Source of the DNA: Podarcis gaigeae
Lineage: Eukaryota
Length of the DNA: 64,000 nucleotides
Strand: one strand, 5' to 3'
NCBI GenBank assembly: GCA_964106915.2
Contig: OZ066915.1
Shown here: piece by piece, positions 25,401-62,641 of the stretch
Layout: every line of letters begins with the position of its first letter
How positions within the stretch are numbered: the first letter of the stretch is position 1
The notes under the pieces: model-generated
Told to the model about the DNA's origin: nothing
What the model saw: the letters and a program-made list of their open reading frames with translations, nothing else
The model's database searches: none
Program-made: the position numbers and the translations under genes

Positions 25401-28400
25401 ACTTGGAAGAAAGTCCCACTGTGTTCAGTAATGCTTCCCCCCCCCCCCAGGTTAATGTTCATAGAATTGTAGCCTTAATATTGCATATACAAATCCACCC
25501 TGCTCTCCTTTGAAATAGACAACACTGATAGAGTAGAAATACAATTGGTTTTAAAACATATGCTAAAGTAGCTGGCCTTCCCCCTTATTTTTGGTCCCCA
25601 GATATTATTGGACAACAACTGTCATCAGTCCTTGGCCATTTTGGCTAATGGTCAAGGAAGATGAGAGTTGTAGTCTTGCAGCATCTGGGGTATCCAAGAC
25701 TGGGGAGAGCTCCTTGCCAGCCTGGATAGAAAAAACACAAATCTCAGGTATCAGTGCCTTTGACGAATTGTGTGCTAGCATCCATGTGCCATTTATGTTT
25801 GTGGGAGTTGACACATTCAACCCAAGCAGGCAAAACAATTAACTTGAGTTGAAAGACAAGCCTGATTTGCAGTTCTGTGAATCAGCCCTTAATCTTTATA
25901 CTCTACTGTAAAGATACCCTTGTAAAACTATCAGGATGCTAATTACTAATCACTGAATAGAAAGCGGTTTATGATCTGTGCAACTGCCAGCAATGACTCA
26001 CCTCTGTTCCCTCAGGATCTATTGTGAGCCCTCCCCAGCTTGGCCAAGAATTACTGTAAGGAGTAAATTAATTTAAGCAAGAATGTAGTTACTACGATTA
26101 CTTCAAAAACTAATCAAAATTCTGCACCAAAGAAAATTGGTTTTAGGAGCACAGGAAGCTGCTTTACCAGACTATTGGTACATCTAGCTCATCCAGACTT
26201 CCTTTTGTGCTGCCTTTCTAGACACAGGTCCACACTTTAAAGTCCTGTGTCTGCACACTTTTTTCCTCTTGAAAGCTGAATTGCCATTTGTTCCGATTCA
26301 GCTTTAAAGGGCAGGTTTTCATGGGGAAAGCACTGGGACAAAAATGAAAGAAAAAGAAAAAGAAGCACTCAGACACAGTGCTTTAAAGTGGGGACCTGTG
26401 CCTTGAAAGCACAGTAAATAAGCCCTGGCAGTGCCTCTCCAGGCTTTCAGATACTAGGCATCCCCATTTTTATCTGGTGAATTGAATTCAGGACCTTTTG
26501 CACGCATGCTTGACAACTCGGCTACAGCCCTGTATCAATTACAGAAATTGCATTGGCATATGCGTGCTTTATTTTATATAATTCTGCTTCTGATAGCCAT
26601 AGGAGAGCTGCCTGTGCAGCTACTCTCCTCCACAAACATACCTTTTGGCTTCTGAGATTTCGCCTGGGAGGCTTAAGAGGGAGGAGATGATCGGGTGCTC
26701 TTAATGAAATCCAGAAGCCTTGCCACTTCAGTCCTCTCAATTTTACACAGTCCTAGATTTAGGCTGCAGTTGCTGATAGCAAAGCCAATATAGTCCTCCT
26801 GTGTCATGTAGCATCTCAACTGGCATTGCACTGAATGTGGATCCTTTATTGTCTTTTGCACTGCTGCTGCTGCCACCTGCTGTTTTATTGATGGGGTTGC
26901 ATGTGTTTAACATGAAGGGGTTACGTTGGCCGATTTATTAGACGACAAGAAGAAAAGCAGATTTAGATGTTGCCGTGGGTCAAACAAACATGGTAAAAAA
27001 TGTGTTCTGTTTTGCAGTGGATGTGTTTCAATCTAGGCAATGAGTTTTGAGTGCTGCGGTTTAAATTCTCAAACACCTGGGAGTAAATATATTCCCTAAA
27101 TTGCATCTTGCATGGAAGTGATTTGCTGCTTGAATGCATGCTTCAAAGAGATTGTTGCTGCAGTGCAACAACTGTAAGCTGAAATTTCATTATACTCGTT
27201 TAAATTTCCATTGAATAACTCTCAATCAAGTTAAAGCGTACGATCTAGAAAGGCAAATGAGTCAGATATGAGTACATCACTTTAGTTTCAATGTGATGAA
27301 AACCATAAAGCGTTTAAAAGCTCTCAGGATATGATGGCGCATTGACCAAGAACAAGCTTTCTCTTAAAAACAAGGACATCTGGTAGTTCTGCTAATGGTG
27401 AAAACGTATGTTTGCGGTGTTGTGCAGTGCCAGCAGAATGAACTGTTTTCTTTCCTCCAAATGCATGGATATATTGGAACTTCTTTCTTTGCTTTGTGGG
27501 ACAGTCCAGAGGCTTGGTGACTTTTCGTGCAAATCAATTTAAGGACTTTTCTGGATAATGTTTCCTTCCTCAGAATTATCCTTCGCTAGGCCCGAACCAG
27601 CATTGGTAGCGATTAAAATGTGGGTAGCTATGTTGGCATGGCGGCGTGGGGCACTGAAACATTCACATTTTTAAAAATATTTTTTAAAACCCAGGGAGAC
27701 ACACGCTTCAACATTAGACAGGGGGACACAATCCCTAGAAATTAATTAGAGGCAGAGAGTATCCTTTTAAGTGTTCACCACCTTTCTCACTCTCTGGTGA
27801 ATTAAAAAATAAATAAAATATAAAATAAAATGTGTAATTGCTTAGAATTGGTAGTGATGATGCAGGCGTTATTGAATGGTGCTTGGTGACACTGCCATGC
27901 CACACTGAGAAAGGACTGAGAAAGTGTGATAGATAACAGAATCGAAACATTGATGGAAGAAGTCTGAATCCTGTGCAACAAATGACTAACAATTCAATCT
28001 TAGGCATGTTTACTCAAAAGTAAGTTCCCATATGATCTGTGGAGCTTACTCCCAGTTAAGTGTGCATCAGATTGCAGCCCAAGATGTGTACTGATTGCTT
28101 GGAAAGCCATTAAATTAAACAGAGTAGATCATAATGAGAGTTGTTTGACAACAACTCAAAAGGATTGTGGACCCGGCTAACCAGGATTAATGCAACCCTG
28201 CTAGCCACATATCTTGGCCTTCATTAGGTTATTTTGCTTGCTACCAGACTGTGACTAAAAAGAGGGAAGGGTTCTCATTTACACCTGGCAGATCACAACA
28301 CATGGTTGTGAATTAGGCAAGGTGTTGTACTCAGGCTGGAGTGAGTCATAGACAGTGTATGTTCAACCTAGCAGTACTTCAGAACTTTAATGGGGGCAAA

Positions 28401-62641: not shown

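What the first reader, a model, noticed from the sequence alone, without database searches (positions are those of the whole stretch)
26918..62641. A complete hair-cell-type Cav1.3 splicing module (exons 9a, 22a, 30a) is intact in a lizard
Seen: three extra frame-preserving exons with canonical splice sites, in the I-II loop (75 nt), IIIS2 (60 nt) and IVS2-S3 loop (30 nt). Known (recalled): chicken basilar-papilla alpha1D uses a 26-aa I-II insert, an alternative IIIS2 exon and a 10-aa IVS2-3 insert. Inference: this coordinated programme is ancestral to sauropsids and retained in squamates. With 8a/8b and the NAGNAG site, the window alone allows up to 32 in-frame isoforms.
Basis: partly seen in the sequence, partly recalled or inferred. 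Interest (0 to 1): 0.72.

Follow-up and report, generated by a model that had tools for sequence, protein, structure and literature searches.

The report
Ancient sensory-cell Cav1.3 exons in lizard
This lizard calcium-channel gene keeps three intact optional exons that match those of the chicken hair-cell channel, but they are as old as jawed vertebrates, two are already in public lizard and snake annotations, and their joint use in the lizard ear is likely but untested.

Summary
The window holds exons 6-30 of CACNA1D (Cav1.3). Exons 9a (75 nt), 22a (60 nt) and 30a (30 nt) are real: canonical, frame-neutral and orthologous to the three inserts of chicken UniProt isoforms 5-7 (17/25, 20/20, 6/10 residues).

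Three corrections. (1) 22a is a swap partner of exon 22, not an extra exon. (2) The set is not sauropsid: each exon occurs in cartilaginous fishes, one coelacanth model has all three, and 22a is in mammals. (3) Coordination is unsupported outside the ear: among 52 squamate proteins, 30a is in 9 of 50 with an identical peptide (6 lizard and snake species), 7 of those 9 use exon 22, and 9a is in 0 of 51.

The better lead is 30a. It is the orthologue of the basic skate insert recalled to lower the electroreceptor channel's threshold. The squamate version has lost the acidic residue kept in every other lineage sampled (net +4 versus +1 to +3). Exon 9a, unannotated in this sample, is flanked by three RBFOX motifs, like its paralogue Cav1.2 exon 9*. 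No ear RNA or physiology was available. Verdict: new member of a known kind, modest interest.

The parts
1254..60601 (+). CACNA1D (Cav1.3 alpha-1D), exons 6 to 30 (numbering by recalled convention); gene continues on both sides
   Evidence: Best solved-structure match of exon 14 is alpha-1D 7UHF (E 6.3e-46) ahead of alpha-1C (9.2e-44); exon map
12257..12360 (+). exon 8a (104 nt), swap partner of 8b
12967..13070 (+). exon 8b (104 nt)
   Evidence: swap keeps the frame open
23068..23237 (+). exon 9, upstream flank of 9a
26898..26903 (+). TGCATG (RBFOX-type motif) 20 nt before the 9a acceptor, where the pyrimidine tract should be
   Evidence: function inferred
26918..26992 (+). cassette exon 9a, 75 nt, I-II loop; whole codons read [24 protein letters not shown]
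   Evidence: 17 identical residues to chicken P0150, 18 to gharial P0361, 12 to ray P0127; shuffle test; in 0 of 51 squamate proteins
27109..27140 (+). two further TGCATG motifs (27109, 27135) downstream of 9a
   Evidence: 9a is the only one of 32 exons with three motifs within 300 nt; 0.8% of 675-nt windows have three or more
29966..30053 (+). exon 10, downstream flank of 9a
   Evidence: one contig of run X13 lies on 29966-30052
31001..31027 (+). exon 12, 27 nt, frame-neutral
50181..50186 (+). NAGNAG acceptor (AAGTAG) of exon 20; the upstream AG adds one valine
   Evidence: the lizard RefSeq proteins read V-G here
54122..54181 (+). exon 22 (IIIS2, common form), [20 protein letters not shown]
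   Evidence: sole IIIS2 exon in 44 of 52 squamate proteins
54182..54261 (+). 80-nt intron between 22 and 22a; its 3' end is conserved with turtle and bird
   Evidence: run-on gene models P0011 (Chrysemys) and P0398 (Otus) translate the same 13 residues as the window's intron frame
54262..54321 (+). exon 22a (IIIS2 alternative, mutually exclusive with 22), [20 protein letters not shown]
   Evidence: identical to chicken P0164; alone in 5 and together with 22 in 3 of 52 squamate proteins; strongest acceptor of the gene
60491..60601 (+). exon 30 (IVS2), upstream flank of 30a
62612..62641 (+). cassette exon 30a, 30 nt, IVS2-S3 loop, [10 protein letters not shown]
   Evidence: identical peptide in RefSeq isoforms of Podarcis muralis, P. 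raffonei, Lacerta agilis, Anolis carolinensis, Crotalus tigris, Pantherophis guttatus

Best explanation
The lizard CACNA1D gene carries three intact alternative exons, two cassettes (9a, 30a) and one swap exon (22a), that date from the ancestor of jawed vertebrates, are likely switched by separate controls, and likely come together in hair cells to give a channel predicted to open at more negative voltages. Shown: sequence, frame, orthology and age. Inferred: 30a places four basic residues in the cytoplasmic IVS2-S3 loop beside the domain IV voltage sensor and would lower the activation threshold, as recalled for the skate electroreceptor insert. 22a swaps six residues of IIIS2 and is normally used instead of 22. 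9a adds a basic 25-residue segment after the acidic stretch of exon 9 in the I-II loop, as Cav1.2 exon 9* does. It is likely held out by RBFOX proteins in brain, heart and muscle, which would explain why squamate annotations show 30a and 22a but not 9a.
For: Open frames and canonical sites. Homologous peptides find the exact exon starts against shuffles. Chicken isoforms 5-7 carry all three. Chondrichthyans, coelacanth, gar and teleosts carry 9a; chondrichthyans and coelacanth carry 30a; 22a runs from chimaera to rodents and whales. 9a-like exons lie at two other loci of this genome (L004, L005), L005 with an exon-10-like neighbour, so the exon predates the Cav1 gene duplications. Uncoupled use in gene models: squamates 35 with none, 7 with 30a only, 3 with 22a only, 2 with 22a+30a, 0 with 9a. 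[quoted passage not shown] Cav1.2 9* is 75 nt, shifts activation by 9 mV negative and is excluded by Rbfox1/2 (PMC5748662). Skate Cav1.3 activates at more negative voltage (10.1101/274449, PMC10064067), with an insertion of four positive residues named KKKER (PMC5993716).
Against: No lizard ear RNA and no electrophysiology. Isoform combinations in RefSeq/Ensembl models are built from short reads or projected from chicken, so they neither prove nor disprove coupling. 9a has no transcript support in any squamate examined and has below-median splice sites (8 of 29 training exons score lower at each end), so it could be rarely used. Two of its three RBFOX motifs lie downstream, where such sites usually enhance inclusion (own knowledge), and the motif test was chosen after seeing the sequence. 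The proline and the lost glutamate of squamate 30a may change or cancel the gating effect. The primary papers (Kollmar 1997, Bellono 2017/2018) could not be read.
Confidence: 0.7

Rival explanations
1. One reading: the three exons form one co-regulated hair-cell module, and the partial combinations in databases are artefacts of gene modelling or leaky splicing.
For: Chicken isoforms 5-7, Latimeria P0365, crocodile P0363 and two turtle models carry all three. The chicken paper's title states hair cell-specific splicing (reference entry). All three exons are intact here.
Against: Several triple models may be projections of the chicken entry. 30a appears without 9a in six squamate species and mostly with exon 22. 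Batoid models with 9a and 30a use exon 22 (P0127, P0277, P0283). Gar models mix 9a and 22a freely and lack 30a in 15 of 15. The three exons have unlike splice signals and motifs.
Confidence: 0.2
2. Squamate 9a is a decaying relic that is no longer spliced in; only 22a and 30a are live.
For: 0 of 51 squamate proteins include it. Weak acceptor and donor. Searches with the lizard 9a frame found no relative.
Against: Open frame, ancestral 75-nt length, intact AG/GT and 18 of 24-25 residues shared with crocodilians are hard to keep without selection. The two searches exclude or collapse full-length channels.
Confidence: 0.1

Closest known systems
Chicken basilar-papilla alpha-1D isoform (Kollmar et al. 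1997, PMC25133; paper not read, sequences from UniProt isoforms 5-7, P0150/P0164/P0167)
   Same: Same three positions; 22a identical; 9a 17 of 25 residues; 30a 6 of 10.
   Different: Lizard 9a is 75 nt (25 aa), bird 78 nt (26 aa). Lizard 30a reads [10 protein letters not shown] against IFVRKKERWL. Tissue specificity is known only for chicken.
Skate and shark electroreceptor Cav1.3 with the basic KKKER insert (Bellono et al. 2017; not read, seen through citing papers; position and mutagenesis recalled)
   Same: 10-residue insert at the same exon 30/31 boundary; 6 of 10 identical to the batoid peptide VCVKKKERWL (P0132, P0277); four basic residues.
   Different: The literal KKKER motif is absent; glutamate is replaced by lysine and a proline precedes the basic run. 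Lizards have no electroreceptors. I did not fetch the Leucoraja electroreceptor cDNA itself.
Cav1.2 (CACNA1C) exon 9* and exons 21/22 (PMC5748662, passages)
   Same: 75-nt basic cassette after exon 9; tandem mutually exclusive IIIS2 pair; RBFOX motifs beside the cassette.
   Different: 9* is a smooth-muscle exon of the paralogue; the lizard 9a peptide is more diverged and cysteine-rich.
Mammalian Cacna1d exons 22a/22 (10.1101/598722, passages)
   Same: Same tandem 60-nt pair with a short intron (73 nt in mouse by the coordinates given, 80 nt here).
   Different: That paper names the common exon 22a and the hair-cell exon 22. No mammalian protein sampled has 9a (0 of 52) or 30a (0 of 57); mammals have exon 11, which was not found here.

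Membership tests
CACNA1D / Cav1.3 | Best match to alpha-1D and continuous reading frame over domains I-IV exons | tested here: met
Chicken hair-cell Cav1.3 splice programme | Orthologous I-II loop insert | tested here: met
   17/25 identity, best hit at exon start, 0 of 200 shuffles
Chicken hair-cell Cav1.3 splice programme | Alternative IIIS2 exon | tested here: met
   20/20 identical to P0164
Chicken hair-cell Cav1.3 splice programme | 10-residue IVS2-S3 insert | tested here: met
   same site and length, 6/10 identical; identical peptide in nine squamate RefSeq isoforms
Chicken hair-cell Cav1.3 splice programme | Co-inclusion of all three exons in one transcript | tested here: inconclusive
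   0 of 52 squamate proteins have all three, but these models are poor evidence on combinations
Chicken hair-cell Cav1.3 splice programme | Enrichment in inner-ear hair cells | not testable with these tools
   no run with a recorded tissue was offered
   present in chondrichthyans, coelacanth, gar and teleosts; 22a also in mammals
Electroreceptor low-threshold insert | Basic 10-residue insert at the exon 30/31 boundary | tested here: met
   batoid and coelacanth peptides score best at 62612, 0 of 200 shuffles
Electroreceptor low-threshold insert | Literal KKKER motif | tested here: not met
   window reads PKKKR
Electroreceptor low-threshold insert | Negative shift of activation voltage | not testable with these tools
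   needs patch clamp
Mutually exclusive exon pair | Tandem same-length homologous exons, one used per transcript | tested here: met
   39/60 nt identical, 80-nt intron; one exon only in 49 of 52 squamate proteins, both in 3
RBFOX-repressed 9*-type cassette | TGCATG motifs in the flanking introns | tested here: inconclusive
   three motifs, one at -20; 0.8% of windows as dense; also two near the L004 paralogue, none near L005; binding untested

The most novel reading that the evidence does not exclude
Squamates fixed a charge-strengthened form of the ancient electroreceptor voltage-tuning exon (30a: glutamate replaced by lysine, net +4, invariant across lacertids, an anole and snakes) and use it beyond the ear. 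This would give them a distinct ultra-low-threshold Cav1.3, while exon 9a is released from RBFOX repression only in hair cells.
Probability: 0.25. Interest if true: 0.55.

Novelty: new member of a known kind. Interest (0 to 1): 0.3.

Why it matters
It shows that one small kit of Cav1.3 exons is shared by shark and ray, coelacanth, bird and lizard, which fits the common origin of hair cells and electroreceptors, and that 9a and 30a are missing from the mammalian proteins sampled. The squamate 30a peptide is a natural charge variant for testing how a cytoplasmic basic loop sets the activation voltage of Cav1.3. Exon 9a appears to be missing from squamate annotations. None of this overturns a view; it extends known cases to a new lineage.

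Tried and rejected
Sauropsid origin: rejected. '22a is an added exon': rejected; double inclusion is in frame (+20 aa) and appears in some gene models, but the Cav1.2 equivalent does not conduct (PMC5748662). Splice-site strength as proof of exonhood: rejected, two pseudo-exons score higher in each host intron. Direct searches with the lizard 9a frame: no candidate among proteins of 73-2000 aa, and one spurious repeat protein, P0405, among 50% cluster representatives. A genome search with a skate 9a peptide scored three candidates and did not return the window's own 9a; the third hit, L006, looks like chance.

RNA: no RNA holder listed on record. Four of the 15 guessed-RNA runs were laid on 23000-31100. 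X1, X2 and X3 gave no cover on exons 9, 9a or 10 and are uninformative; most laid contigs belong to a repeat near 24830-25200. One X13 contig (depth 3.9) lies on exon 10 and has 23 further letters upstream, which matches the cover in the exon 9 bin, with none in the 9a bin. This suggests a 9-10 junction, but it is below the 31 letters needed to count as bridging and the tissue is unrecorded. No reads were laid on the 22/22a or 30/30a junctions, so these have no direct read evidence here.

SRRM3/4 control of 30a: a TGC lies at -16, but 8 of 32 exons have one in that zone, so no support. A mammal-type exon 11 between exons 10 and 12: not found. Kollmar 1997 (two papers), Bellono 2017 and 2018, and PMC6170976 were not held. 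Earlier findings of this scan: none.

Full report
Gene. The window is the middle of CACNA1D on the + strand. Exon 14 matches human alpha-1D best (7UHF, E 6.3e-46; alpha-1C 9.2e-44). tBLASTn with an anole and a cheetah protein placed exons 6-30 in the window and 31a, 31b and 33 onward in the adjoining loci L001 and L002. All 32 mapped exons have AG/GT ends and the base model is a 1090-residue open frame. Exon numbers follow a recalled convention. Closest named proteins are lacertid; I did not determine the species.

Observation. 9a (26918-26992), 22a (54262-54321) and 30a (62612-62641) are present and keep the frame open singly and together. 22a is a tandem duplicate of exon 22 (39/60 nt, 14/20 aa) behind an 80-nt intron, so it replaces rather than adds. 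A bioRxiv paper (10.1101/598722, passages) describes the same mutually exclusive pair in mouse and human. Splice signals alone are weak evidence: 316 and 136 open candidates exist in the two host introns and the true exons rank third. Homologous peptides from fetched proteins find the exact starts. For 9a, four peptides each beat all 200 shuffles. For 30a, skate and coelacanth peptides beat all 200, and the chicken peptide was reached by 15 of 200.

Orthology and age. Two productive homologue searches (the best 120 of 1767 and of 2130 hits) and two cluster look-ups (up to 15 members listed per cluster) gave 404 proteins, sorted by hand into clades. Chicken UniProt isoforms 5-7 carry a 26-residue 9a, 22a and a 10-residue 30a. 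Counts among proteins spanning each site: squamates 9a 0/51, 22a 8/52 (5 alone, 3 with 22), 30a 9/50; chondrichthyans 9a 14/45, 22a 5/53, 30a 23/50; gar and bowfin 9a 5/15, 22a 5/15, 30a 0/15; coelacanth 1 of 2 with all three; crocodilians 9a 2/13, 30a 1/13; mammals 9a 0/52, 22a 7/54 (always together with 22), 30a 0/57. Among the other 211 proteins (birds, turtles, teleosts, amphibians, sturgeon, others), 30a was found in 11 of 169 spanning the site, all bird or turtle. These are isoform records, not independent species, and the sample is not random. The exons therefore go back to the jawed-vertebrate ancestor. 9a is older still: two other loci of this genome hold 9a-like exons (L004, likely CACNA1C 9* by recall; L005, beside an exon-10-like stretch).

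Is it a module? In squamate records 30a appears with exon 22 seven times and with 22a twice, never with 9a. Batoid records pair 9a and 30a with exon 22, and gar records mix 9a and 22a without 30a. Records with all three are chicken, some other birds, two turtles, a crocodile and the coelacanth; several may be projections of the chicken entry (inference). Gene models do not establish real combinations. But the presence of 30a in RefSeq isoforms of six squamate species suggests reads from ordinary, non-ear tissues (inference), while 9a seems more restricted. Read evidence of my own was uninformative (see Tried and rejected).

Mechanism. 30a: every version ends in a basic run. Batoids VCVKKKERWL (net +3), bamboo and zebra sharks VCVPKKERWL (+2), electric ray, sevengill shark and coelacanth VCVEKKERWL (+1), birds, most turtles and crocodile IFVRKKERWL (+3), squamates [10 protein letters not shown] (+4, 9 of 9). 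Citing papers state that skate electroreceptor Cav1.3 activates at more negative voltage and inactivates less (10.1101/274449 and PMC10064067, passages). One names an insertion of four positive residues, KKKER, citing Bellono 2017, though it loosely speaks of a K+ channel (PMC5993716, passage). That this insert lies in IVS2-S3 and causes the low threshold is recalled. The batoid peptides fetched here contain that motif at the 30a position, so 30a is very likely the same exon. A low threshold for lizard 30a is predicted, not shown. 9a: a basic segment (net +4) after the acidic end of exon 9. For the paralogous Cav1.2 exon 9*, a review reports 75 nt, a 9 mV negative shift, loss of Galectin-1 inhibition and exclusion by Rbfox1/2 (PMC5748662, passages and section 5.1). 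Lizard 9a has TGCATG at -20, +117 and +143, the only exon of 32 with three; repression by RBFOX is inferred. 22a: six substitutions in IIIS2, with a conserved intron end shared with turtle and owl; effect unknown, possibly dihydropyridine sensitivity by analogy with Cav1.2. PMC7781618 (passages) shows that other Cav1.3 loop exons (11, 32) shift activation by only 3-4 mV, a caution on effect size.

Literature. Ten searches listed no paper on these exons in squamates; the library lacks most subscription journals. Kollmar 1997 was seen only as reference entries and through one citing sentence. Bellono 2017/2018 were seen only through citing passages (PMC5429088, PMC13069148, PMC10486799). PMC10018040 (passages and a search of its one supplement), PMC7652395 (passages) and PMC4930328 (passages) added nothing specific. 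Whether the chicken-skate homology is already stated in Bellono's papers I could not check.

Verdict. Two of the three exons are already annotated in close relatives with identical peptides. What may be new is an unannotated squamate 9a with an RBFOX cluster and the invariant, more basic squamate form of the electroreceptor-type exon. New member of a known kind; interest 0.3.

Noticed in passing
window 54217-54261: The last 13 codon-lengths of the 22-22a intron translate identically in run-on gene models of a turtle (P0011) and an owl (P0398), pointing to a strongly conserved splicing element.
   Followed up: partly
L001 797-880 and 1198-1281; L002 2284-2328: Mutually exclusive exons 31a/31b and the 45-nt cassette exon 32 lie just beyond the window; exon 32 here encodes 15 residues, two more than the anole and bird versions fetched.
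   Followed up: partly
window 30054-31000: No counterpart of the mammalian 60-nt exon 11 was found between exons 10 and 12.
   Followed up: partly
L004 (G000:C21) and L005 (G000:C30): 9a/9*-like exons at two other loci, likely other L-type channel genes; the L005 exon (VTVADLTEKKKKKWFRYSSHSTDTH) may be an overlooked exon of a third paralogue.
   Followed up: partly
window about 24830-25200 and 33790-34160: Short interspersed repeats resembling Sauria SINE (name recalled); thousands of contigs from the laid runs pile on the first.
   Followed up: no
window 43371-46591, + strand: Several long stop-free frames (up to 320 codons) in intron 17 with a T-rich skew, likely an antisense LINE fragment.
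   Followed up: no
P0125, P0155, P0287, P0132 (fetched proteins): The fourth residue of 30a differs among cartilaginous fishes (K, E or P), so its net charge ranges from +1 to +3 among electroreceptive species.
   Followed up: no
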